Shown piece after piece: positions 3,856-53,958 of a stretch of DNA of 54,277 bases (its first letter is position 1; each line of letters opens with the position of its first letter). The notes below the pieces were generated by a model. That model ran no database searches and was not told the DNA's origin. It was given only the letters and a program-made list of their open reading frames with translations. This DNA comes from Candidatus Nomurabacteria bacterium RIFCSPHIGHO2_01_FULL_41_71 (GTDB lineage: Bacteria; Patescibacteriota; Minisyncoccia; Phycocordibacterales; UBA9973). Where the stretch lies: NCBI GenBank assembly GCA_001785355.1, contig MFTQ01000020.1, forward strand, positions 1 through 54,277, given 5' to 3'. Position numbers and translations under genes: made by a program.

Positions 3856-3927
3856 GGAGGTATTGGTGTAGTAGTAGCACAGCAGCTTGTGGAGCTGTTA
3901 GCGAGAGTGCAATCCTCTCATACCTCC
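3856..3927 (+). tRNA. tRNA-His (anticodon GUG) with encoded G-1 opposite C73
   Basis: Hand-folded cloverleaf. G-1 at 3856; acceptor GAGGTAT/ATACCTC; anticodon stem GCAGC/GCTGT with loop TTGTGGA; T arm GAGAG-TGCAATC-CTCTC. CCA is not encoded. Confidence 0.85.
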
Positions 3928-10185: not shown

Positions 10186-10219
10186 GTTTACTATTCTGAC
10201 GGCCGTCAGGATAGTAAAC
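10186..10219. terminator. bidirectional intrinsic terminator between convergent MazG-like gene and folA
   Basis: 17-bp stem GTTTACTATTCTGACGG/CCGTCAGGATAGTAAAC with one T-G pair; T runs on both strands. Confidence 0.6.
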
Positions 10220-12153: not shown

Positions 12154-13392
12154 ATGTACACACGTTATTCGGGGGATCCGAACAAATTCGGACGACCTAA
12201 GTTTGTCCACAAAGCAAAGCCCCATTTTGGTGGCAGAAAGCCTACATTTAATAGAAACAGCAAAAGATCCCGAGGCGAGCGGATTGATTTTTCTCGTTTC
12301 ATAAAGAAAGGAACTTATACTGAAGAAGCGCCTTATGTTTCCAAACACACTTTCGCTAATTTTTCTTTTAATCCGCAACTACATAAAAATATTACAACGG
12401 CAGGATTTATTCATCCTCGACCCATTCAGGACCAAGCGATACCTTCTGTGATGGAAGGTAAGGATGTTTTCGGCATGGCCAATACGGGCACGGGGAAAAC
12501 TGCGGCTTTTCTTTTGCCTTTGATAGAAAAAATAGTTAGAACAAGAGGCAAAAATATGAGGGAAAAAGTTTTAATAATGGCGCCAACTCGCGAGCTGGCC
12601 CTGCAGATAGAGAGCGATTTTAAAAAACTTGCTTTTGGATTCGGAATGTTTTCAGTGGCTTGTGTCGGAGGACTTCCAATAATGAAGCAAATTAGGGAAA
12701 TAAAAATGGGAGTTTCGTTCATCATCGGTACCCCTGGGAGACTGCGCGATTTGATTGATAAAAAAGTTTTGGATCTCTCTACATGTCATTCGGTAGTTCT
12801 AGACGAAGCTGACAGAATGCTTGATATGGGATTCAGAGACGATATGGTGTACATAATCGGCAAAACTTCTAAAGAACGCCAGACACTTTTCTTCTCGGCG
12901 ACACTTTCGCCGGAGATTAAAAAATTAACAACTCAATTTTTGAAAGACCCCATTTTTATTTCCGTAATTACGGGCGTTACCCTAAAAAATATCGACCAAG
13001 ATGTTATTCGCATTCGAAGCAAAGAAGAAAAATTATCTAAATTGCATGAGGTTTTAAAAAAAGACGGTTCAGATAAAGTTTTGATTTTCCGTGAGATGAA
13101 GCATAGCGTGGACGGCCTCACCAAAGAGCTTTCTCAATTTGGGTTCAAGGTCGGCGCAATTCATGGAGATAAGCGAAGTCGAGAACGTATTCGCATTCTT
13201 GATTCTTTCAAACAAAACAAGATAAATATTCTGATAGCGACCGATGTGGCAGCCAGAGGCCTCGACATTCCGGACGTTACCCATGTCATCAATTACGATG
13301 TCCCCCAAACCTACGACACCTATATTCACCGCATCGGCCGCACCGGCCGAAGCGGCAAAAAGGGAACAGCCCTCACCTTTGTGCCTGCTTAG
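12154..13392 (+). CDS. DEAD-box ATP-dependent RNA helicase with basic N-terminal extension
   Basis: Q motif, Walker A (ANTGTGKTAAF), DEAD (VLDEADRML), SAT and HRIGRTGR motifs. Confidence 0.9.
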   Translation: MYTRYSGDPNKFGRPKFVHKAKPHFGGRKPTFNRNSKRSRGERIDFSRFIKKGTYTEEAPYVSKHTFANFSFNPQLHKNITTAGFIHPRPIQDQAIPSVMEGKDVFGMANTGTGKTAAFLLPLIEKIVRTRGKNMREKVLIMAPTRELALQIESDFKKLAFGFGMFSVACVGGLPIMKQIREIKMGVSFIIGTPGRLRDLIDKKVLDLSTCHSVVLDEADRMLDMGFRDDMVYIIGKTSKERQTLFFSATLSPEIKKLTTQFLKDPIFISVITGVTLKNIDQDVIRIRSKEEKLSKLHEVLKKDGSDKVLIFREMKHSVDGLTKELSQFGFKVGAIHGDKRSRERIRILDSFKQNKINILIATDVAARGLDIPDVTHVINYDVPQTYDTYIHRIGRTGRSGKKGTALTFVPA

Positions 13393-13427
13393 ATCAATCC
13401 AGCTTTGAAGAGCGTGGCATAGGCACC
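13389..13427 (-). pseudogene. relic 3' end of rpmB (L28), diverged duplicate of 14361-14399
   Basis: Minus-strand reading GGT GCC TAT GCC ACG CTC TTC AAA GCT GGA TTG ATC TAA (GAYATLFKAGLI*) compared with functional GGC GCC TAC GCC ACA CTC CTC AAA GCT GAA TTG ATA (GAYATLLKAELI). Differences are mostly at third positions. Confidence 0.6.
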
Positions 13428-13461
13428 GCACTCGTCTTTCTTCTTATTAGATATCACATTG

Positions 13462-13487
13462 CACATTTAAACGGCCGTCTAAATGTG
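13462..13487. repeat. palindrome CACATTTA-AACGGCCGTC-TAAATGTG overlapping the promoter of the PaaX-like gene A (operator candidate)
   Basis: 8-bp arms. The same 10-nt centre recurs at 13999-14026 with a compensatory arm change. Confidence 0.75.
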
Positions 13488-13500
13488 GTATACTATAAAG

Positions 13501-13989
13501 ATGCATAAACATTGGACTGATGAGGCCTCTTTTAGCGATTTTATCATTAGCCATTTATTATCCTGTGGTTCACTTAGAATTCAAAAGCAGGTACTTTATG
13601 AATTGATATGCAAAAAAAGGGAGCTGAATAAACAACTATTCAACAATAATCTACATCGGCTTCGAAAGAAAGGCATATTAAATTATTCTTCTAAAAAAGA
13701 TATTGTCATCAATAAAAGCGCCCTAAGAGCCCATACGCTTTTTTCAAAAATAAGAACAAAGCCGACAGGGGACACTAAAGTCATGGTTTTGTTTGATATT
13801 CCAGAAAAGAAAAGAAAAACCAGAAACTGGCTTCGTTCACAGTTAAAATTATGGGATTTTGAAATGTTACAACAAAGTGTTTGGCTTGGAAAAGGTCCTT
13901 TACTAAAAGAATTCACCGTTCGCCTTCGTTTACTTGACGTTCATAAAGGCGTAAAAATATTTAAAATTCAAAATGTCCGAAAGATGTAA
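13501..13989 (+). CDS. PaaX-like/Cas2-fold winged-helix regulator, paralog A
   Basis: C-terminal VMVLFDIPEKKRKTRNWLRSQLKLWDFEMLQQSVWL matches the PaaX/Cas2-like ferredoxin-fold pattern. Start set to the ATG at 13501, 6 nt after TGgTATACT. Confidence 0.55.
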   Translation: MHKHWTDEASFSDFIISHLLSCGSLRIQKQVLYELICKKRELNKQLFNNNLHRLRKKGILNYSSKKDIVINKSALRAHTLFSKIRTKPTGDTKVMVLFDIPEKKRKTRNWLRSQLKLWDFEMLQQSVWLGKGPLLKEFTVRLRLLDVHKGVKIFKIQNVRKM

Positions 13990-13998
13990 AAATACATA

Positions 13999-14026
13999 CC
14001 ACTTTTAAACGGCCGTCTAAAAGTGG
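13999..14026. repeat. palindrome CCACTTTTA-AACGGCCGTC-TAAAAGTGG downstream of gene A
   Basis: 9-bp arms with a centre identical to 13462-13487. The A-to-T change in the left arm is matched by T-to-A in the right arm. Confidence 0.75.
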
Positions 14027-14104
14027 TGTGGTTGTTATTTTAACAAAATATAACACTATTCAATTAAGTAAACTTAACCCTCATCAGGATAGTCTCTAAG
14101 AAAA

Positions 14105-14350
14105 CTATTTTTTAAAAAATAGAAAATCTATTAAAGTTTGCCTCGCGGAGGTAGTGCTCACGTCTGTAGTATCTAAAGAAGTTTCCGGTTCAATATCATA
14201 TCTACTTTTTATGTAAAACTTAAACCACTCTCTAAATTCATCATCGGTAATCTCTTTTGGATTTAGGGCATTTAAATCTACATATTCGTTTCCCCGTTTT
14301 ATACGAATCGGTAGTTCTCTGTTTGGTTTTCTAAAATCTTCCGGTTTCAT
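14105..14350 (-). CDS. hypothetical protein (81 aa)
   Basis: ORF lies 4 nt downstream of rpmB on the same strand; no motif recognised. Confidence 0.45.
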   Translation of the reverse strand: MKPEDFRKPNRELPIRIKRGNEYVDLNALNPKEITDDEFREWFKFYIKSRYDIEPETSLDTTDVSTTSARQTLIDFLFFKK

Positions 14351-14354
14351 ATCT

Positions 14355-14603
14355 TTAAGCCTTTATCAATTCAGCTTTGAGGAGTGTGGCGTAGGCGCCG
14401 CGTTTTTTTATGGTGCGGAGGCCACGAGTTGAAACTTCAATATTTATTGATTTATTGAGCTCCGGAATAAAAATTTTCTTTTTCTGAAGATTCGGATACT
14501 TCCTTGCCTTGCCGGTAGGATTAAATTTTGTGGCGCGAGTGCGGTTGGAATATCCACCTCCCACTATCGAACCTTTATTTGAAATGACGCATATTTTTAC
14601 CAT
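14355..14603 (-). CDS. rpmB: 50S ribosomal protein L28
   Basis: 82 aa with an L28 pattern (YSNRTRATKFNPT...PNLQKKKIFIPE...VSTRGLRTIKKRG). Confidence 0.85.
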   Translation of the reverse strand: MVKICVISNKGSIVGGGYSNRTRATKFNPTGKARKYPNLQKKKIFIPELNKSINIEVSTRGLRTIKKRGAYATLLKAELIKA

Positions 14604-26084: not shown

Positions 26085-26924
26085 ATGAAAACATACAAAC
26101 CCACAAGTAAATCACGAAGACAAATGACCCATGTTTCTTATCGGGACGTTATTACTCGCATTTCTCCGGAAAAATCCCTGACTCATGGGTTAAGGAGATC
26201 GGTAGGAAGAAACAGCCAGGGACGCATCACCATGCGCCATAAAGGAGGTGGACACAAGCGCCTTTATCGGGAGGTGGATTTTTTATATAACAAAAAAGAA
26301 ATTCCGGCTAAAATAAAATCTGTCGAATATGACCCCAATCGTTCGGCTTTCATCGGGCTTGCGGTATATCGGGATGGAGAGAAGAGATATGTAATATTGC
26401 CAAAATCCATAAAGCCCGGAGACTCTTTTTTGGTATCCGACAAGGCGGAACTCAAGCCGGGGAACAGGCTTCCGCTTAAAAATATTCCGGTCGGGACTTT
26501 TGTCTACAATATAGAGCTTAAGCCCAGGGGCGGGGCGAAAATTGGGCGCGGAGCGGGCGTTTTCGCTCAAGTGGTGGCTAATGCCGAGGGCTATACCAAT
26601 ATAAAAATGCCTTCGTCGGAAATAAGGAAAATAAACGAAAATGCCTGGGCCTCGATCGGAGTGGTCTCAAACGAAGAATACCATTTGCAAAATTTCGGCA
26701 AGGCGGGCCGGAGCCGGTGGAAGGGAATTCGTCCGACCGTTCGCGGCACGGCCATGAATCCGGTGGACCATCCCTACGGAGGAGGCGAAGGCCGTCAGGG
26801 CCGGGGTACTAAGCGCCCGAAGACTATGTGGGGAAAAATTACCGGCGGACGCAAAACTCGCAGTCCGAAAAAGTATTCAAATGTTTTTATCGTTTCTCGC
26901 CGGGTAAAGAAGGGGAAGAAGTAA
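26085..26924 (+). CDS. rplB: 50S ribosomal protein L2
   Basis: Clear L2 sequence (GRNSQGRITMRHKGGGHKR, MNPVDHPYGGGEG). Start set to the ATG at 26085. Confidence 0.95.
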   Translation: MKTYKPTSKSRRQMTHVSYRDVITRISPEKSLTHGLRRSVGRNSQGRITMRHKGGGHKRLYREVDFLYNKKEIPAKIKSVEYDPNRSAFIGLAVYRDGEKRYVILPKSIKPGDSFLVSDKAELKPGNRLPLKNIPVGTFVYNIELKPRGGAKIGRGAGVFAQVVANAEGYTNIKMPSSEIRKINENAWASIGVVSNEEYHLQNFGKAGRSRWKGIRPTVRGTAMNPVDHPYGGGEGRQGRGTKRPKTMWGKITGGRKTRSPKKYSNVFIVSRRVKKGKK

Positions 26925-26980
26925 AAAAGGGAGGGCGCTGTACTTGTTGCGTAATATAAGTAGTATGGTATATTTTACTT

Positions 26981-27277
26981 ATGGCCATTCAAAAACATAC
27001 GAAAACCAATGTCCTAAATTTAACCTTAACAGTTCAAGTCTTTAAGGAAGGTAAATACTTTGTTTCCTACAATCCTGAACTAAAAGTTGCAAGTTGTGGC
27101 AAGAATATTGATGAAGCAAAGGAAAAATTAAAGGAAGCAATATCCGGCTTTTTGAAATCGGCCAAAGCGATGAATACCCTAGACGAAATAATGGAAGAAG
27201 CCGGCTTTTCTTATAAAAAGCATCAATGGTTTACCCCAGACCTTTTAGTTATGGATCGTCTGTCCTTGGCGTTTTAA
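26981..27277 (+). CDS. hicB: HicB-family antitoxin
   Basis: 98 aa with a UPF0150/HicB N-terminal fold pattern (VFKEGKYFVSYNPELKVASCGKNIDEAKEKLKEAI), followed 4 nt later by hicA. Confidence 0.75.
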   Translation: MAIQKHTKTNVLNLTLTVQVFKEGKYFVSYNPELKVASCGKNIDEAKEKLKEAISGFLKSAKAMNTLDEIMEEAGFSYKKHQWFTPDLLVMDRLSLAF

Positions 27278-27281
27278 TTTT

Positions 27282-27512
27282 ATGCCAAAAGTAACTCCGA
27301 TTCATTATAAAAAATTAGTGAAGGTTTTTGAATATTTGAATTTTCATTTTGATAGGCAAGAGGGTGATCATTTGATTTATGTTAAAAATGGAATAAAGAG
27401 ACCTGTGGTAATACCCATGTATGATGATGTGCCTGTTTTCATCATCAAAAATGATATAAAGTTAGCCGGTGTTTCGCGAAGCGAATACATGAAAATTTTA
27501 GCAAAAATTTAG
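27282..27512 (+). CDS. hicA: HicA-family mRNA interferase toxin
   Basis: 76 aa with a YcfA/HicA pattern (KKLVKVFEYLNFHFDRQEGDHLIY). Confidence 0.75.
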   Translation: MPKVTPIHYKKLVKVFEYLNFHFDRQEGDHLIYVKNGIKRPVVIPMYDDVPVFIIKNDIKLAGVSRSEYMKILAKI

Positions 27513-27523
27513 AATTTTTTTAA

Positions 27524-27649
27524 GGCCGGGGAACTAAATGGCCAAAAACAATGTGGGGCAAAGTAACCGGCGGCAGAAAAACCAGACGCCCCAAAAAGTA
27601 TTCAAATATTTTCATCGTTTCTCGCCGGGTAAAGAAGGGGAAGAAGTAA
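27524..27649 (+). pseudogene. second, diverged copy of the last 41 codons plus stop of rplB
   Basis: Codon-by-codon alignment with 26799-26924. 16 of 42 codons differ, 12 of them synonymously. The final 36 nt are identical and the frame is intact to the TAA. Confidence 0.85.
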
Positions 27650-27684
27650 AAAAAGAGAAATTAAAAATTAAACAGAATTTTCCT

Positions 27685-27722
27685 TGTCTACCGAAATGAA
27701 CATATGTTCATTTCGGTAGACA
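27685..27722. repeat. perfect 38-nt palindrome, copy 2 (TGTCTACCGAAATGAACATATGTTCATTTCGGTAGACA)
   Basis: Every position pairs. It is followed by TTTT on the + strand, so it may also act as a terminator for hicBA. Confidence 0.85.
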
Positions 27723-27885
27723 TTTTGAAATAAGACTTTTCCACATTTTGATTTGCGTTATGTGTAGATATTGGTAGTCTCTTAAATGGATCCGGCCCTT
27801 TCAGGGGTATCCCAGCCCCCGGCCGGGTCCAGAAGGAGATTATAGGATGTGTTGTAGGCGGCGCGCCCGTTCTAGGAACGGACGC

Positions 27886-27910
27886 AAAAAGGCGCTCCGA
27901 AAGGAGCGCC
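27886..27910 (-). terminator. intrinsic terminator (distal) for the 506-aa gene
   Basis: GGCGCTCC-TTTC-GGAGCGCC followed by TTTTT on the minus strand. Confidence 0.6.
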
Positions 27911-27932
27911 GCCGGCAACTTGGGCTGCCGGC

Positions 27933-27970
27933 AAAAAAAAGGCGGGGGGGGGCTAGCTAGACCCCCCGCC
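27933..27970 (-). terminator. intrinsic terminator (proximal) for the 506-aa gene
   Basis: GGCGGGGGG...CCCCCCGCC followed by T8 on the minus strand. Confidence 0.6.
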
Positions 27971-28098
27971 TCCTCCCGCCGGGCTGGCGCGTTCTAAGCT
28001 AGCCCCAAAATCCACGGCCGGGCCTCGACGCAAGTCGGGCCCGGCCATTCTATTTTTACCCCAACGGCTCATCTCCCGCCATTTGAGCCGTATGAAAT

Positions 28099-29619
28099 TT
28101 ATCCTCTTTTTGCCTGATTCGCCAGATATTCCGCAAGAAGCGCCCGCGCTCCGGCCGACTTCCTCAGCCATTCCGGAAATTGGGACATATTTGGGACGGA
28201 AATCTTGTTTGTTTTCAGGGCTTCTGTTGCCGCTCCGGCGGTGCCGACTACTTCCAACTGCTCGCTACCTCTTTTACTTGTTGTCATTTTTATAAGTACC
28301 ACCCCCGGCATCATTCTTGTTGTTTTTTTCTTTCCCTCTCTTTCCACTACCGGCACATTTACCTCAAAACCGCCTTTTTCGATCAGGCTCTTTATCTCCT
28401 CCGTCACTTTTCCTTTTTTTTCCGAATCGGGAGCGCGTCCCGGAGCTTTCTCCGCTCCGGCAGCAGAGCCGTCTTTCTTTTTTTCTCCTGATTTTTTCTT
28501 GGCAAACATGTATTCTTCTCCGTTGCCGAGTAACTGGCGGAGAATCTGCTGGCCGGTAATCGCCCGCCCCAACTCTTCCAGAAGTTTTTTCATAGACTCG
28601 TCTTCCTCTTTTACTCCGGCATCCAAAGCTTCCCGTTCCGGTTTTTTCTTATCTTGAAGAAAGCTAAGAGTTTGACCGTAATGCACCCCCATCATCATCC
28701 AGGGAGCCACTTCGTTTTCTTTAATTTTTTTGTCCCGATACGCTTCCGCCAATTTTTTTCTTATTTCTTCAAAAATTCCGGGAGTTTTCCCCTGTTCGCC
28801 AAGGGCTGATTTTAGCTTAGTCTCAATATCTTGGTCATCTATTACTTCTTTGATTTTTTTAAAGGCCCTGTTTTGCCGGCTCCGGACGGATTTGAGATCC
28901 GGGATAAACTTTGCTTGGAGGAGTTTTAGCCTTCCTTCTTTTAAAACTTTGGCCGCCGCCGTCCGCTTTTCCGCCTCTCTGGCTTCGATATATCCGAGAA
29001 CTCGGGGATTTGCTTCTATCTCCCGGATCGTCGCTTCGGTCTCTTCGGTTCTTCGTTTGTAAACCGCCAGGGTCCTTTCGATTATTTCTCCCCGCCGGGT
29101 TGAAATTCTATTTTGTTCTTCCAATATTCTTCTCTTTATTTCCTCTCGGAATTTTTCTCGAATGGTAAAAAGTTTAGCCAATGTTTGAGCTTCATCAGGG
29201 GATAGACTTTTTATGCTCTGGAATCTATACAGGACTGTGTCCATATTTTCCAAAATTCTTTTTTGAAGCGGATCTTTCGAATCGCGATCGATTATTTTTT
29301 CTTCTGCCAGGGCTCCATAGTCTCCCGGATTCAGATTTTCCATCGGAGACAATTGCCCGAGCCACTTCAAATATTCTTCGAAGGCACGCAGATACCTGAG
29401 CTGTTCTACTTGTTTTTCCCTCTCATTCACCCTTTTCCCTATTTCTTCTTCGGTGACCAGAGCTTCGGTCGCCATCTTATCCGCCTCTTTCAGTAAATCT
29501 CCCATTTCTTCGGGACTTGGGAAGGAGAACGTTTCTTCTTGCGGAACATCATTATTTTGTTTATTTTCCACCGGGGGCTCATTTGGTTTGGGTATATTGG
29601 AATTTATTCCTTCATTCAT
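28099..29619 (-). CDS. hypothetical 506-aa charged, coiled-coil-rich protein (orphan), antisense to the ribosomal operon
   Basis: Long ORF with its own promoter and terminators. No catalytic, TM or nucleic-acid-binding motif recognised by eye. Confidence 0.7.
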   Translation of the reverse strand: MNEGINSNIPKPNEPPVENKQNNDVPQEETFSFPSPEEMGDLLKEADKMATEALVTEEEIGKRVNEREKQVEQLRYLRAFEEYLKWLGQLSPMENLNPGDYGALAEEKIIDRDSKDPLQKRILENMDTVLYRFQSIKSLSPDEAQTLAKLFTIREKFREEIKRRILEEQNRISTRRGEIIERTLAVYKRRTEETEATIREIEANPRVLGYIEAREAEKRTAAAKVLKEGRLKLLQAKFIPDLKSVRSRQNRAFKKIKEVIDDQDIETKLKSALGEQGKTPGIFEEIRKKLAEAYRDKKIKENEVAPWMMMGVHYGQTLSFLQDKKKPEREALDAGVKEEDESMKKLLEELGRAITGQQILRQLLGNGEEYMFAKKKSGEKKKDGSAAGAEKAPGRAPDSEKKGKVTEEIKSLIEKGGFEVNVPVVEREGKKKTTRMMPGVVLIKMTTSKRGSEQLEVVGTAGAATEALKTNKISVPNMSQFPEWLRKSAGARALLAEYLANQAKRG

Positions 29620-29625
29620 ACTTTT

Positions 29626-29654
29626 ATGCTAAGATTTTTTCATTTTAAAGTCAA
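29626..29654 (-). promoter_or_regulatory. promoter TTGACT-N17-TAGCAT with the ATG 6 nt after the -10 (leaderless)
   Basis: Minus strand: TTGACT at 29654-29649, TAGCAT at 29631-29626, spacer aaaagt, ATG at 29619. Confidence 0.55.
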
Positions 29655-29667
29655 ATCATATTTTCCC

Positions 29668-29695
29668 TTGCTTTTATATTTAAATTTGATATTAT
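29668..29695 (+). promoter_or_regulatory. promoter TTGCTT-N16-(TGa)TATTAT restarting rpsS and downstream genes
   Basis: TTGCTT at 29668-29673 and TATTAT at 29690-29695 with TG at 29687-29688. Confidence 0.45.
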
Positions 29696-29747
29696 AAATC
29701 CAAGCTCGCTAAGGGCTTATTTTAATGTCTGCCGAATAATTTTTATC

Positions 29748-44995: not shown

Positions 44996-45032
44996 TGCCC
45001 ACAGCCAGTGCCTCAGGCACTGGCTGTGGGCA
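44996..45032. repeat. REP hairpin, 5' flank of RAYT (17-bp stem)
   Basis: TGCCCACAGCCAGTGCC-TCA-GGCACTGGCTGTGGGCA. Confidence 0.85.
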
Positions 45033-45048
45033 GTGCTATACTTGCACT

Positions 45049-45723
45049 ATGAGAAAGCAACCAATTATAACAGGTGAATATTATCACATATATAATCGTG
45101 GTGTAGATAAGCGAGATATTTTTAAAAACAAAAAAGATATTGATCGTTTCTTTGAGAGTATAATTGAATTTAATCAAACTGAAATTATAGGGAGCATACG
45201 AGATGTAAGAAAGCATCAACCAGTGCCTCAGGCACTGGCTGATGCCACTAAAGATCCATTAGTTTCTTTTGTGGTATATTGTTTAAATCCTAATCATTTT
45301 CATTTTGTTTTGAAGCAGTTAGTGGACGGTGGAATAGCCAAGTTTATGCAAAAACTGCAAGCAGGGTACACTTATTATTTTAATGTCAAGTATTCTCGCA
45401 CTGGATCTCTTTTCCAAGGACCTTTTAAATCACAAGTTATGGCTAGTGAAAATTATTTTAACAAAATTCTTGGATATGTGAATAAAAATTACAAAGTTCA
45501 TTATATTCCAAAAAATAAATCTCATCTTGTCTATGCTAGCGACTATGAATATGAGAATAATAATTTGAAAATTGTTTCAAAAGAAGAAGGAAAAAGATTT
45601 TTGAACATTTTCAGTGGTAATAAGAATTTCAAAAAACACTGCGAAGAAATTATTGATATTATAAGAGCAGAAAGAGGAAGGGTTTCTCTTTTAGAAAAAG
45701 ATGCTCCCCCAGCCAGTGCCTGA
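45049..45723 (+). CDS. REP-associated tyrosine transposase (RAYT; IS200-like Y1/HUH)
   Basis: YHIYNRG N-terminus and HUH motif (NHFHFVL), with downstream Tyr-containing region YTYYFNVKYSRTGSLFQGPFKS. Start set to the ATG at 45049, 6 nt after TGcTATACT. Confidence 0.75.
   Translation: MRKQPIITGEYYHIYNRGVDKRDIFKNKKDIDRFFESIIEFNQTEIIGSIRDVRKHQPVPQALADATKDPLVSFVVYCLNPNHFHFVLKQLVDGGIAKFMQKLQAGYTYYFNVKYSRTGSLFQGPFKSQVMASENYFNKILGYVNKNYKVHYIPKNKSHLVYASDYEYENNNLKIVSKEEGKRFLNIFSGNKNFKKHCEEIIDIIRAERGRVSLLEKDAPPASA
45213..45245. repeat. REP hairpin copy inside the RAYT coding sequence
   Basis: GCATCAACCAGTGCC-TCA-GGCACTGGCTGATGC (one mismatch). In frame, it encodes ...HQPVPQALADA... Confidence 0.8.
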
Positions 45724-45744
45724 GGCACTGGCTGGGGGAGCATC
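45700..45744. repeat. REP hairpin, 3' flank of RAYT (21-bp stem)
   Basis: GATGCTCCCCCAGCCAGTGCC-TGA-GGCACTGGCTGGGGGAGCATC. The RAYT stop codon is the TGA loop. Confidence 0.85.
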
Positions 45745-50182: not shown

Positions 50183-50231
50183 GGAAAAATGTGGTTTGTA
50201 AGTTTTCCCGCTTGAGTGACGCAATATTTTT

Positions 50232-50634
50232 TGTGGAACTGGGGGGAAATGAGCCCCCGTGCAGAAGGTTTCTGCCTTGATTTCTACATGTTTAGCAAGC
50301 TTTTTGTTTTAGGTTAAAGAATTTTTAAGCGTGCCAAATATTTTTTAACCGAGCCTCTGTGTTTTCGGAAGTTAGCCGAGGCGGTCCTCTTCCTAATCCC
50401 GATAATATTGCGCCTCAACTCATATATCGGAAGTCTATGAGAGAGACGTCAGCTTACGCCGAAGCGCTCACTGAAGCGAAAGCGAAGTCATTCATACCGA
50501 AGTATGGGAAGACCGCCGCCTTCACCTTGGAAGCTAATTTTGCAATTAGACATTTGAACAAATTTTAACGAGATTATGTTCATGCTCGACATGCGTCAAG
50601 AGCCGAAGGCCCGCTGTCTATGCCTTTCAGTCCC
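50232..50634 (-). ncRNA. ssrA: tmRNA (SsrA)
   Basis: 5' end GGGACUGAAAGGCAUAGACAGCGGG...GCAUGUCGAGC. 3' T-arm GGGGG-CUCAUUU-CCCCC, then acceptor CAGUUCC-A, giving a G3-U70 pair. Candidate tag frame runs 50543 to 50454. smpB lies immediately upstream. Confidence 0.85.
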
Positions 50635-53884: not shown

Positions 53885-53958
53885 CCGCCTGTAGCTCAGC
53901 TGGTTAGAGCATCTAGCTTATACCTAGAGGGTCCTACGTTCGAATCGTAGCAGGCGGA
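53885..53958 (+). tRNA. tRNA-Ile (anticodon UAU)
   Basis: Hand-folded: acceptor CCGCCTG/CAGGCGG, D arm GCTC-AGCTGGTTA-GAGC, anticodon stem TCTAG/CTAGA with loop CTTATAC, T arm CTACG-TTCGAAT-CGTAG, discriminator A. Confidence 0.85.

What the first reader, a model, noticed from the sequence alone, without database searches (positions are those of the whole stretch)
13389..14399. A second cassette of the same style sits at the 3' end of rpmB (L28)
Immediately after the helicase stop, and overlapping it, the minus strand reads GAYATLFKAGLI-stop (13427-13389). This is a diverged copy of the functional L28 C-terminus GAYATLLKAELI (14399-14364), with mostly third-position differences. Between the two copies lie an 81-aa ORF and the PaaX/Cas2-fold gene A with its two flanking palindromes. 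So two unrelated cargo modules, hicBA at rplB and this one at rpmB, are each bracketed by direct diverged repeats of an r-protein gene 3' end. That suggests a general, possibly undescribed route for small integrase-less cassettes to enter conserved gene termini in this lineage.
Basis: seen in the sequence. Interest (0 to 1): 0.75.

Follow-up and report, generated by a model that had tools for sequence, protein, structure and literature searches.

The report
Gene-end repeats bracket inserted cassettes
A leftover copy of the end of ribosomal protein gene rpmB marks where about 1 kb of foreign DNA was inserted between two abutting genes, at a spot that collects small recombinase-less gene cassettes across this group of ultra-small bacteria.

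Summary
Window 13389-13429 (minus strand) is an orphan copy of the rpmB 3' end (32/37 nt identical; p about 8e-7). It sits where rpmB ends in insert-free relatives, with its stop overlapping the helicase stop.

The lineage is Candidatus Nomurabacteria. Of 76 related species, 26 have helicase and rpmB converging with a spacer of 51 nt or less. The other 50 carry inserts of 0.1-4.4 kb with varied cargo, and no integrase was found. In 17 loci, including the window, the cargo is bracketed by orphan copies of the last 32-93 nt of rpmB and/or of the helicase gene.

Differences between orphan and working copies fall 72% on third codon positions, the same as between orthologues. So the two ends in a pair mostly diverged while both were part of working genes, which points to horizontal transfer.

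When both orphans are present, the order is always helicase | rpmB-end | cargo | helicase-end | rpmB. That is the footprint of single-crossover (Campbell-type, att-like) insertion.

The window insert holds two units: an autoregulated PaaX-like (winged-helix plus Cas2-fold) gene with its two binding-site palindromes, and an ORFan co-transcribed with rpmB.

The pattern resembles known att-flanked, decayed integrative elements. The recombinase is unknown.

The parts
12154..13392 (+). DEAD-box helicase gene; the left flank of the insertion site. Its stop overlaps the orphan's stop.
   Evidence: Pfam DEAD 2e-48 and Helicase_C 4e-35. Orthologues at 76-91% identity in 80 Nomurabacteria/Paceibacterota loci.
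13389..13429 (-). Orphan copy of the rpmB 3' end (GAYATLFKAGLI-stop), in the position where rpmB ends in insert-free relatives.
   Evidence: 32/37 nt identical to 14365-14401; p about 8e-7. Same 4-nt stop overlap with the helicase gene as L006 and L018. No terminator-like fold.
13462..13491 (.). 5' palindrome of gene A (CACATTTAAACGGCCGTCTAAATGTG), lying across the predicted promoter; a probable operator.
   Evidence: Inverted repeat. Promoter-like TTTAAA-17-TATACT at 13466-13494. Conserved next to TATACT in all 11 full-length orthologous loci examined.
13501..13989 (+). Gene A: a winged-helix plus Cas2-fold protein (a short PaaX-like regulator). The longest ORF starts at 13483.
   Evidence: Pfam PaaX_M 1.6e-12; TIGR01573 cas2 28 bits over the first 38 model positions. 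AF2 model pLDDT 75 with wHTH plus a beta-alpha-beta-beta-alpha-beta domain. Best fold hits are E. coli PaaX 8a39 and Cas2 structures. Conserved start at M7.
13996..14027 (.). 3' site of gene A (ACCACTTTTAAACGGCCGTCTAAAAGTGGT). Second copy of the binding-site motif, and possibly a terminator for the minus-strand rpmB-orf81 transcript.
   Evidence: Direct repeat of the 5' site, 88% over 34 nt. Right half conserved in all orthologous loci, but the left arm is often not complementary. Terminator-like on the minus strand.
14105..14350 (-). orf81: a lineage-restricted small ORF 4 nt downstream of rpmB; a separate insertion unit.
   Evidence: No Pfam or NCBIfam hit. Only 4 hits among 1.8e9 representative proteins. 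Shared at 48% identity only with L047, at the same place.
14355..14603 (-). Working rpmB (L28). Its last 47 nt (14355-14401) hold the second repeat copy (repeat core 14365-14401).
   Evidence: Pfam Ribosomal_L28 2e-11. Its C-terminus KAELIKA is unique; all 76 relatives have KAG (one KAR).
26799..26928 (+). Working rplB 3' end; first copy of the 130-nt repeat of the companion case.
26981..27512 (+). hicBA-type toxin-antitoxin pair between the two rplB-end copies.
   Evidence: HicA_toxin 3.5e-10 for 27282-27512. The upstream 98-aa ORF has no Pfam hit but resembles the HicB-like protein of L015.
27524..27653 (+). Orphan copy of the rplB 3' end with an intact frame and stop.
   Evidence: 84% identity over 130 nt; 15 of 21 differences at third codon positions.

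Best explanation
**What is shown**
- The helicase/rpmB convergent junction, which has no spacer in the ancestral state, is a clade-wide insertion hot spot.
- In the window, about 970 bp (13430-14364) has been inserted about 47 nt inside the end of rpmB.
- The insertion left a complete working rpmB end at 14355-14401 and a displaced orphan end at 13389-13429, still abutting the helicase stop.

**What is inferred**
- The insertion happened by a single-crossover (Campbell-type) event between the chromosomal gene end and a circular or permuted incoming DNA that carried its own copy of that gene end.
- Such an event duplicates the shared segment as direct, att-like repeats on both sides of the cargo.
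- The incoming copy came from another Nomurabacteria lineage. That is why the two copies differ mainly at synonymous positions.
- Once bracketed by repeats, a cassette can be looped out and re-inserted at the same conserved gene end in a relative. Further cassettes can be added next to it (accretion).

**Not determined**
- The enzyme. No recombinase is encoded in cis. It is either a site-specific recombinase acting in trans, which would make the cassettes decayed, CIME-like derivatives of integrative elements, or the host's own homologous recombination after DNA uptake.

**The cargo**
- One unit is an autoregulated PaaX-like repressor gene (gene A) with an operator palindrome over its promoter and a second site after its stop.
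- The other is a separate ORFan (orf81) that rides on the rpmB transcript.
For: - Empty sites exist. L006 and L018 have the same 4-nt stop overlap, and 26 of 76 relatives have a spacer of 51 nt or less.
- The site is often occupied: 50 relatives carry 94-4411 nt of varied cargo, including hicBA, Fic, GNAT, patatin, a kinase, a phosphoesterase, DUF3800 and IS200-like Y1 genes.
- Orphans of the locus's own rpmB end (12 loci) or helicase end (8 loci) score far above shuffled controls.
- L082 is a minimal case: helicase | about 50-57-nt rpmB orphan (48/50 nt identical in the aligned core) | palindrome-gene A-palindrome | rpmB.
- In all 3 loci with both orphans (L030, L036, L077) the order is helicase | rpmB-end | cargo | helicase-end | rpmB. 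Duplication of the whole junction predicts this order. Two successive one-sided replacements predict the opposite.
- Degraded helicase-end remnants follow gene A in L009 and L047 as well.
- Pooled orphan-versus-working differences by codon position are 23/12/88, or 72% at third positions. The orthologue baseline is 69%. The value expected for an in-place duplicate whose orphan drifts neutrally is about 45% (binomial p = 2e-9).
- In about half of the loci the orphan is no closer to its own working copy than to rpmB of unrelated species.
- Gene A is scattered over the helicase tree, often next to empty-site sisters, and gene A identity does not track helicase identity (Spearman -0.06).
- L132 has a toxin-antitoxin-like ORF pair (mazEF type by sequence motifs, not profile-scanned) flanked by a perfect 70-nt rplB-end repeat, so the process is recent or ongoing.
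- Literature: integrative elements target the 3' ends of ribosomal-protein genes, leave such repeats, decay to integrase-less CIMEs and accrete in tandem (PMC5704250). Patescibacteria keep homologous recombination and DNA-uptake genes and exchange genes mostly among themselves (PMC12455944).
Against: - No recombinase was found in any of the occupied sites scanned, in the 20 window ORFs profile-scanned here, or on a viral contig carrying these genes. No intact parent element is known.
- The repeats are short (37-57 nt) and 77-98% identical. In the window the longest identical run is 9 nt, which is poor substrate for RecA.
- The same kind of repeat occurs at three unrelated genes (rpmB, helicase, rplB). 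That argues against a single site-specific integrase.
- rpmB orphans end within a roughly 15-nt zone around a T-run, 40-57 nt from the stop, in 10 of 12 loci. The model does not explain this clustering.
- No circular form or excision junction has been seen.
- Which of the two window copies is the foreign one could not be determined. All available relatives are only 75-85% identical in DNA.
Confidence: 0.5

Rival explanations
1. In-place duplication. The insertion event itself copied 35-130 nt of the target, either as a very long target-site duplication from staggered breaks or by a template switch at the replication fork. Both copies are then native. Later differences come from evolution of the working gene, including allelic replacement, while the orphan is kept nearly unchanged.
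For: Near-identical repeats in L132 (70/70), L082 (48/50 aligned) and L027 (45/47). In L082, L019, L030 and L059 the orphan's best match is its own working copy. The topology is the same as for Campbell insertion.
Against: The pooled third-position share (72%) equals the orthologue baseline. It rejects a neutrally drifting orphan (p = 2e-9). The window orphan shows no terminator-like fold or other visible reason for constraint. Orphans next to gene A in different species are as diverged from one another as unrelated rpmB genes are. No known bacterial transposase makes duplications of this length (own knowledge).
Confidence: 0.2
2. One-ended homologous recombination after DNA uptake (homology-facilitated illegitimate recombination). 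Donor DNA pairs through rpmB and the genes beyond it. Its far, non-homologous end is joined by microhomology inside the recipient's own rpmB end. The orphan is then the native end, and the working end plus cargo is foreign.
For: No recombinase is needed, and Patescibacteria are credited with competence and recombination genes. Joints lie in or next to T-runs on both sides, which fits microhomology. The orphan keeps the native stop overlap with the helicase gene. The window orphan carries the clade-consensus G, and the F shared with L015, its neighbour in the helicase tree, while the working copy has a unique E.
Against: Successive one-ended events predict helicase-end orphans to the left of rpmB-end orphans. 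All 3 two-orphan loci show the reverse order. Random illegitimate joints should be spread along the 250-nt gene, not clustered at 40-57 nt. Textbook cases of this mechanism delete recipient DNA rather than duplicate it (own knowledge).
Confidence: 0.15
3. Gene A moves itself. Its Cas2-fold domain and its two directly oriented palindromes would act as nuclease and terminal sites, either like an IS200/IS605-type palindrome element or like a Cas1-Cas2-style integrase that duplicates its target.
For: L082's insert is essentially just palindrome-gene A-palindrome. Both sites are conserved in every orthologue. A paralogous Cas2-like gene at S7-fusA also sits between its own pair of palindromes. IS200-like Y1 genes flanked by hairpins occur in the same hot spot (L077) and elsewhere in the window.
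Against: All orthologues found sit at this one junction, which is not how a transposon is distributed. The same orphans flank unrelated cargo that has no such palindromes. The 5' site spans the -35/-10 of a promoter, as an operator does. The left arm of the 3' site is often not complementary, so a hairpin is not conserved. The best structural match is the repressor PaaX. There is no Cas1 and no HUH motif in gene A.
Confidence: 0.05
4. Chance similarity or a metagenome assembly artefact.
For: The repeat is short, and the sequence comes from a metagenome.
Against: p is about 8e-7. The same structure appears in 14 independent assemblies at 99.9-100% identity. The same kind of orphan appears in 16 other loci from unrelated studies.
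Confidence: 0.01

Closest known systems
Site-specific integrative elements that target the 3' end of housekeeping genes (IMEs, ICEs and prophages in rpsI, rpmG, rpmE, rplL, guaA and tRNA genes) and their decayed, integrase-less derivatives (CIMEs) that accrete in tandem
   Same: [quoted passage not shown] Empty sites exist in relatives. Several units lie in tandem at one site. Small units lack integration genes. Cargo includes toxin-antitoxin pairs (PMC5704250).
   Different: No integrase was found in any of about 50 occupied sites. The units are one or two genes (0.5-1 kb), not 5-100 kb. The ends of both converging genes can be duplicated. The same footprint occurs at unrelated genes. The two repeat copies share no long identical core in the window. 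The host is a candidate-phyla-radiation bacterium, where I found no description of such elements.
Tycheposons and tRNA-flanked islands of Prochlorococcus (streamlined genomes)
   Same: Streamlined genomes with hot spots where cargo modules pile up between partial copies of the target gene. Some modules lack their own recombinase (own knowledge; preprint 10.1101/2020.12.28.424599 appeared and was not read in full).
   Different: Those elements use tyrosine recombinases and tRNA genes. Here the targets are protein-gene ends at a convergent junction, and no recombinase is seen.
Homology-facilitated illegitimate recombination during natural transformation
   Same: Foreign DNA enters next to a conserved anchor gene without any element-encoded enzyme, with joints at microhomology (own knowledge).
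   Different: The described cases usually delete recipient DNA. Here the target is duplicated, and the order of the two orphans contradicts successive one-ended events.
Integron gene cassettes
   Same: Single-gene, often promoter-poor or toxin-antitoxin cassettes stacked at one site, each bounded by a recombination site.
   Different: No IntI, attI or attC. The boundaries are copies of neighbouring gene ends, not attC hairpins. Most cargo carries its own promoter.
PaaX-family repressors (E. coli PaaX, PDB 8a39) and Cas2
   Same: Gene A has the N-terminal winged helix and the central Cas2-like ferredoxin-fold domain of PaaX. It also has a palindromic site over its own promoter.
   Different: Gene A lacks the PaaX C-terminal domain and any phenylacetate genes. 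It is 162 aa against about 305 aa. It is not next to cas1 or a CRISPR array, so it is not a CRISPR Cas2.

Membership tests
att-flanked integrated element / CIME | Direct repeats that include the 3' end of the target gene flank the insert, and the target gene stays intact | tested here: met
   13393-13429 versus 14365-14401, with a complete rpmB. The same holds in 16 other loci.
att-flanked integrated element / CIME | Unoccupied target site in related genomes | tested here: met
   L006 and L018 have overlapping stops; 26 of 76 relatives have a spacer of 51 nt or less.
att-flanked integrated element / CIME | An integrase or recombinase in the element, or in an intact related element at the same site | tested here: not met
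   Pfam and NCBIfam scans of about 45 cargo ORFs from about 30 occupied loci found none. None among the 20 window ORFs scanned. Nothing relevant in IMG/VR. Only 80 of 384 helicase-bearing genomes were inspected.
att-flanked integrated element / CIME | Identical core (crossover) sequence shared by the two repeats | tested here: inconclusive
   The longest identical run in the window is 9 nt (CAGCTTTGA). L082 has 48/50 in the aligned core and L132 70/70.
att-flanked integrated element / CIME | Excision to a circle and re-integration | not testable with these tools
   Needs read-level data or an experiment.
Integron cassette | attC site at the cassette boundary, with an intI/attI platform | tested here: not met
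   No tyrosine recombinase was found. The boundaries are gene-end copies. The palindromes belong only to the gene A family.
IS200/IS605 or palindrome-associated element | Subterminal hairpins at both ends, a Y1 (HUH) transposase in cis or trans, and no target duplication | tested here: not met
   Gene A is not a Y1 protein. The hairpin of the 3' site is not conserved. A 37-57-nt target duplication is present. The window's own Y1 gene has unrelated hairpins.
PaaX family (for gene A) | N-terminal winged helix plus a central Cas2-like domain | tested here: met
   PaaX_M 1.6e-12 (47.7 bits, cutoff 24). AF2 secondary structure. Top fold hit is 8a39 PaaX over 153 columns, probability 0.99 but E = 4e-3.
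PaaX family (for gene A) | PaaX C-terminal domain and control of phenylacetate catabolism | tested here: not met
   The protein ends after the Cas2-like domain (162 aa). Its neighbours are helicase and rpmB.
CRISPR Cas2 (for gene A) | Cas2 profile match above threshold, with cas1 and a CRISPR array nearby | tested here: not met
   Pfam CRISPR_Cas2 scores 23.0, below the 23.8 cutoff. TIGR01573 scores 28 bits, but over only 38 of 96 model positions. No tandem or array-like repeats in the window. No cas1 was found in the window.
HicAB toxin-antitoxin (companion rplB cassette) | HicA toxin next to a HicB antitoxin | tested here: met
   HicA_toxin 3.5e-10. The upstream 98-aa ORF has no Pfam hit but aligns with the HicB-like protein of L015 (E = 3e-7 pairwise).

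The most novel reading that the evidence does not exclude
Nomurabacteria, and perhaps other ultra-small competent bacteria, may move single-gene cassettes without any dedicated recombinase. The last 35-130 nt of highly conserved genes would serve as portable homology. A cassette that has picked up such a gene end could loop out, be taken up by a relative, and re-insert by a single crossover at the same conserved gene end. This would build integron-like stacks at junctions that have no spacer. Toxin-antitoxin pairs and small regulators would spread this way, even into the middle of ribosomal-protein operons.
Probability: 0.3. Interest if true: 0.75.

Novelty: new variant of a known kind. Interest (0 to 1): 0.55.

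Why it matters
Candidate-phyla-radiation bacteria have tiny genomes and few recognisable mobile elements, yet they exchange genes often. How they do so is an open question.

This locus offers a concrete, countable footprint of acquisition: orphan gene ends next to the intact gene. It occurs at a site present in every member of the clade. Empty, singly occupied and stacked states all exist across species.

If no recombinase is involved, conserved gene ends themselves would act as attachment sites. That would be a minimal form of cassette mobility. It would also explain how toxin-antitoxin and regulator genes come to sit inside ribosomal-protein operons.

If a trans-acting integrase is found instead, the site identifies the target of a family of CPR integrative elements for which I found no description. 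It would also show how fast such elements decay to one-gene remnants.

A practical point for annotation: the orphans are easily mistaken for pseudogenes or small ORFs.

Tried and rejected
- **Which window copy is foreign.** I compared the orphan and working ends with all relatives, and ran sliding-window DNA identity against the nearest helicase relatives. The available species are only 75-85% identical in DNA, so synonymous sites are saturated and no call is possible. Exact-protein look-ups returned only the same clonal population.
- **Search for an integrase.** I ran Pfam and NCBIfam on cargo ORFs and on 20 window ORFs, and scanned IMG/VR with L28 and with the gene A alignment. Nothing relevant was found; the one IMG/VR locus returned (L099) only carries a distant Cas2-like ORF.
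- **Orphan kept as the helicase terminator.** No terminator-like site was called there. Fold energies of the orphan and of native junctions are ordinary (z between -0.1 and -1.4). L059 and L070 already have a canonical terminator hairpin between the helicase stop and the orphan. I rejected this as the main explanation.
- **CGGCCG as a restriction or cleavage motif that defines the break points.** The hexamer is not avoided: 21 sites against about 5 expected from base composition. Rejected.
- **Palindromes as conserved hairpins.** The one compensatory change seen in the window does not generalise. The right half-site sequence is conserved, not the pairing.
- **orf81 function.** No family and almost no homologues.
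- **Control spacers.** S7-fusA and rplB-rpsS are also variable but rarely carry orphans. Orphans are therefore not a universal signature of insertion in this clade.
- **Rfam.** Nothing in or near the finding.


Full report
**1. The observation**

The sequence is as described.
- The helicase gene (12154-13392, plus strand) ends with TAG at 13390-13392.
- On the minus strand, 13427-13389 reads GAYATLFKAGLI-stop.
- rpmB (14355-14603, minus strand) ends ...GAYATLLKAELIKA-stop.
- The repeat finder reports 13393-13429 versus 14365-14401, 37 nt at 86% identity. In the whole 54-kb window the only comparable nearby direct repeats are the rplB repeat and the two gene A palindromes.
- Aligning the last 60 nt of rpmB against the 3 kb beyond its stop gives a score of 49. 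Five hundred shuffles gave a mean of 19.6 (sd 3.4), for a Gumbel p of about 8e-7.
- Fourteen contigs assembled independently from other samples reproduce the 1.35-kb region at 99.9-100% identity. It is therefore not an assembly artefact.

**2. Where the window comes from, and the empty site**

The helicase protein retrieves 80 loci from Candidatus Nomurabacteria and other Paceibacterota at 76-91% identity. The gene order helicase > < rpmB, M50 peptidase >, S12 >, S7 > is conserved.

After extending both genes to their stops, the spacer between helicase and rpmB ranges from -4 nt to 4411 nt.
- L006 and L018 have overlapping stops (spacer -4), on a TTAG/TTAA tetranucleotide; the window's helicase/orphan junction reads TTAG, as in L006.
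- 26 of 76 relatives have 51 nt or less, often a single bidirectional terminator hairpin.
- The other 50 have 94 nt or more.

The orphan sits where rpmB ends in unoccupied genomes.

**3. The same footprint recurs**

For each occupied locus I aligned the last 150 nt of its own rpmB and of its own helicase gene against its own spacer, with shuffled controls.
- Fourteen of the 51 occupied loci, counting the window, hold a significant orphan.
- Three further loci (L062, L081, L082) also do.
- rpmB-end orphans: the window, L005, L008, L011, L019, L030, L036, L059, L070, L077, L081, L082.
- Helicase-end orphans: L004, L015, L027, L030, L036, L062, L077, L080.

The rpmB orphans start at the stop codon. 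In 10 of 12 loci they end 40-57 nt further on, in or beside the T-run that is the antisense of the Lys-Lys codons of MKK(N/R)GAY. L008 (87 nt aligned) and L030 (about 95 nt) are longer. In the seven loci aligned, the helicase orphans start 36-57 nt before the stop; the L062 copy appears longer.

L082 is the cleanest case: helicase stop, an rpmB orphan of about 50-57 nt (48/50 nt identical to the working copy in the aligned core), 16 nt, palindrome-gene A-palindrome, 11 nt, rpmB.

**4. What the cargo is**

Spacer ORFs fall into many unrelated families:
- hicBA (L015; the related ORFs of L008 were grouped with them by sequence clustering, not profile-scanned);
- Fic (L059);
- patatin plus a metallopeptidase-like protein (L019);
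- a kinase-like protein (L068), GNAT (L076), a phosphoesterase (L073), DUF3800 (L054), a hydrolase (L008, with a related ORF in L010 by clustering);
- IS200-like Y1 transposase-like genes (L003 and L077; L080 by clustering);
- many ORFans.

No tyrosine, serine or DDE recombinase was found. About 80% of the cargo ORFs lie on the helicase strand.

**5. The window insert is two units**

*Gene A*
- It has 94 homologue clusters at 45-90% identity. Every gene A locus examined lies between helicase and rpmB.
- The conserved start is M7, ATG at 13501.
- Pfam gives PaaX_M (1.6e-12).
- The AlphaFold model (pLDDT 75) shows a winged helix followed by a beta-alpha-beta-beta-alpha-beta domain.
- The best fold matches are E. 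coli PaaX (8a39) and Cas2 proteins.
- All 11 full-length orthologous loci examined have a near-perfect palindrome (consensus CCATATTTAGACGGCCGTCTAAATATGG). It is followed directly by TATACT and, a few bases later, by the start codon. The site therefore spans the -35 to -10 region of the promoter.
- All of them also have a second site after the stop (ACGGCCGTCTRAAAGTGGTGT). Its left arm is often not complementary (L030, L034, L040). What is conserved is a sequence, not a hairpin.
- I read gene A as an autoregulated repressor. This is an inference.

*orf81*
- It starts 4 nt after rpmB.
- It has no family and almost no homologues.
- It is shared only with L047, at the same place.

*Flanking orphans*
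- In relatives, gene A is followed by a helicase-end orphan. It is clear in L062, L030 and L036, and degraded in L009 and L047.
- It is preceded by an rpmB-end orphan in the window, L082, L081, L030 and L036.
- The recurrent unit is therefore rpmB-end | site-gene A-site | helicase-end.
- In the window the right-hand orphan is no longer recognisable, and orf81 occupies that side.

**6. How the orphans arose**

Three results constrain the mechanism.

(a) *Codon positions.* Over 19 orphan/working pairs, the 123 differences fall 23/12/88 on codon positions 1/2/3.
- The third-position share (72%) matches that between orthologous rpmB ends of different species (69%).
- It is far from the roughly 45% expected if a copy made in place had then drifted neutrally (p = 2e-9).
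- The rplB pair behaves the same way, with 15 of 21 differences at third positions and an intact frame and stop.
- So the two members of a pair mostly diverged while both were ends of working genes. In other words, they come from different lineages.
- In agreement, about half of the orphans are no closer to their own working copy than to rpmB of unrelated species.
- Gene A is scattered over the helicase tree beside empty-site sisters, with no correlation between gene A and helicase distances.

(b) *Order of the orphans.* In all three loci with both orphans the order is helicase | rpmB-end | cargo | helicase-end | rpmB.
- Duplication of the whole junction on both sides of the cargo gives this order. 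That is what a single crossover with a circle carrying a junction copy would produce.
- Two successive one-ended replacements would place the helicase-end orphan to the left of the rpmB-end orphan.

(c) *Identity range.* Pairs range from 100% identical (L132, a toxin-antitoxin-like pair of mazEF type by sequence motifs, between 70-nt rplB-end repeats) to 77%. This is expected if donors range from siblings to other species.

Together these favour Campbell-type, att-like insertion of horizontally moving cassettes that carry a copy of the gene end.

**7. What remains unexplained**
- No recombinase is seen.
- The repeats are short and diverged for RecA.
- Three unrelated genes serve as targets.
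- The rpmB orphans end in a narrow zone around a T-run.

I tested whether the orphan is retained as the helicase terminator.
- No terminator-like site is called.
- Fold energies are ordinary.
- L059 and L070 keep an orphan even though a canonical terminator hairpin already follows the helicase gene.

So the boundary looks mechanistic, possibly microhomology in T-runs, but this is not shown.

Two control spacers in the same genomes are also variable but rarely carry orphans.
- S7-fusA: 24 of 60 loci occupied; orphans in L015 and weakly in L063.
- rplB-rpsS: 85-4428 nt in CPR relatives against 60 nt or less in most loci from other phyla; orphans in the window and L132 only.

Orphan-forming insertion is thus a minority route. 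It becomes conspicuous where two genes abut, and only insertions that rebuild both gene ends can survive there. This last step is inference.

**8. Comparison with what is known**

The footprint is that of site-specific integrative elements that enter the 3' end of housekeeping genes, including ribosomal-protein genes, and of their decayed derivatives.
- The direct repeats contain the gene end.
- The elements decay to integrase-less, att-flanked CIMEs.
- They accrete in tandem (PMC5704250).

Membership fails on the defining recombinase, which was looked for and not found. It is inconclusive on an identical crossover core.

Patescibacteria are reported to retain homologous recombination and DNA-uptake genes and to exchange genes mainly among themselves, with ribosomal-protein genes frequent in acquired regions (PMC12455944). 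A host-recombination version is therefore plausible.

I found no description of gene-end-flanked cassettes in these bacteria. The search covered open-access text only.

**9. Verdict**
It is a general, recurrent, recombinase-less-looking way of entering gene termini. It is not restricted to ribosomal-protein genes. It is not the only insertion route. It closely resembles a known class of footprints.
- I rate it a new variant of a known kind, with interest 0.55.
- The most novel reading not excluded is cassette mobility driven purely by conserved gene ends and host recombination. I give it about 0.3.

Noticed in passing
window 44997-45741: An IS200-like Y1 (HUH) transposase-like gene (ATG 45050; Pfam Y1_Tnp 1.8e-5; 38% identical to the Y1 gene in the helicase/rpmB spacer of L077). 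It is flanked by GC-rich hairpins at 44997-45031 and 45703-45741. A third hairpin copy lies inside its own coding region at 45213-45245. The layout resembles a REP/RAYT arrangement.
   Followed up: partly
window 27740-28100: A 64-66% GC island in a 42% GC genome, just after the rplB orphan. It has no convincing ORF and no Rfam match at or near threshold. The predicted fold is -187 kcal/mol, with z about -8.9 (plus strand) and -8.3 (minus strand). It is a candidate unassigned structured RNA.
   Followed up: partly
window 10186-10219: A 30-nt palindrome (TTACTATTCTGACGGCCGTCAGGATAGTAA) with the same GACGGCCGTC centre as the gene A sites. It lies between the converging MazG-like and DHFR genes. 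A similar palindrome lies a comparable distance upstream of the helicase gene in L006, L012, L021, L027 and L030, most of which lack gene A.
   Followed up: partly
L047 9747-10223; L006 8231-8720: The S7-fusA spacer is occupied in 24 of 60 relatives. The occupant is often a 124-aa Cas2-like (PaaX_M 5e-13) paralogue that lacks the winged helix and sits between its own pair of about 30-nt palindromes (TACATATTTACGCTATxGCGTATATATGTA). The window lacks it.
   Followed up: partly
window 26925-29747; L100-L135: rplB and rpsS, adjacent in most loci from other phyla (60 nt or less apart), are 2.8 kb apart in the window. Between them lie hicBA, the orphan, the GC island and a 506-aa protein with a NusG-like domain on the opposite strand. 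In CPR relatives the two genes are 85-4428 nt apart. This is a second hot spot inside the S10 operon.
   Followed up: partly
L132 5780-6530: A toxin-antitoxin-like ORF pair (AbrB-like 84 aa plus PemK-like 111 aa, judged from sequence motifs, not profile-scanned) directly after rplB. It is bracketed by a perfect 70-nt repeat of the rplB 3' end plus an 11-nt repeat of the downstream spacer. This looks like a very recent event of the same kind.
   Followed up: partly
L015, S7-fusA spacer: A significant copy of the fusA 5' end (score 62 against a null of 27) lies in the S7-fusA spacer. Gene starts as well as gene ends can therefore be duplicated.
   Followed up: no
protein P0004 (homologue of gene A): A mosaic protein. 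Its C-terminal half is almost identical to the window's gene A, while its N-terminal half resembles P0027. This indicates recombination inside gene A between lineages.
   Followed up: no
L086 6585-7376: In a contig 99.9% identical to the window over the rpmB region, an inositol-monophosphatase-family gene and a 47-aa ORF replace the deaminase gene upstream of the helicase gene. This is another strain-level variable spot.
   Followed up: no
window 50231-50634, 3857-3927, 53885-53958: A tmRNA gene (minus strand) and two tRNA genes. These were the only Rfam matches at gathering threshold in the window.
   Followed up: no
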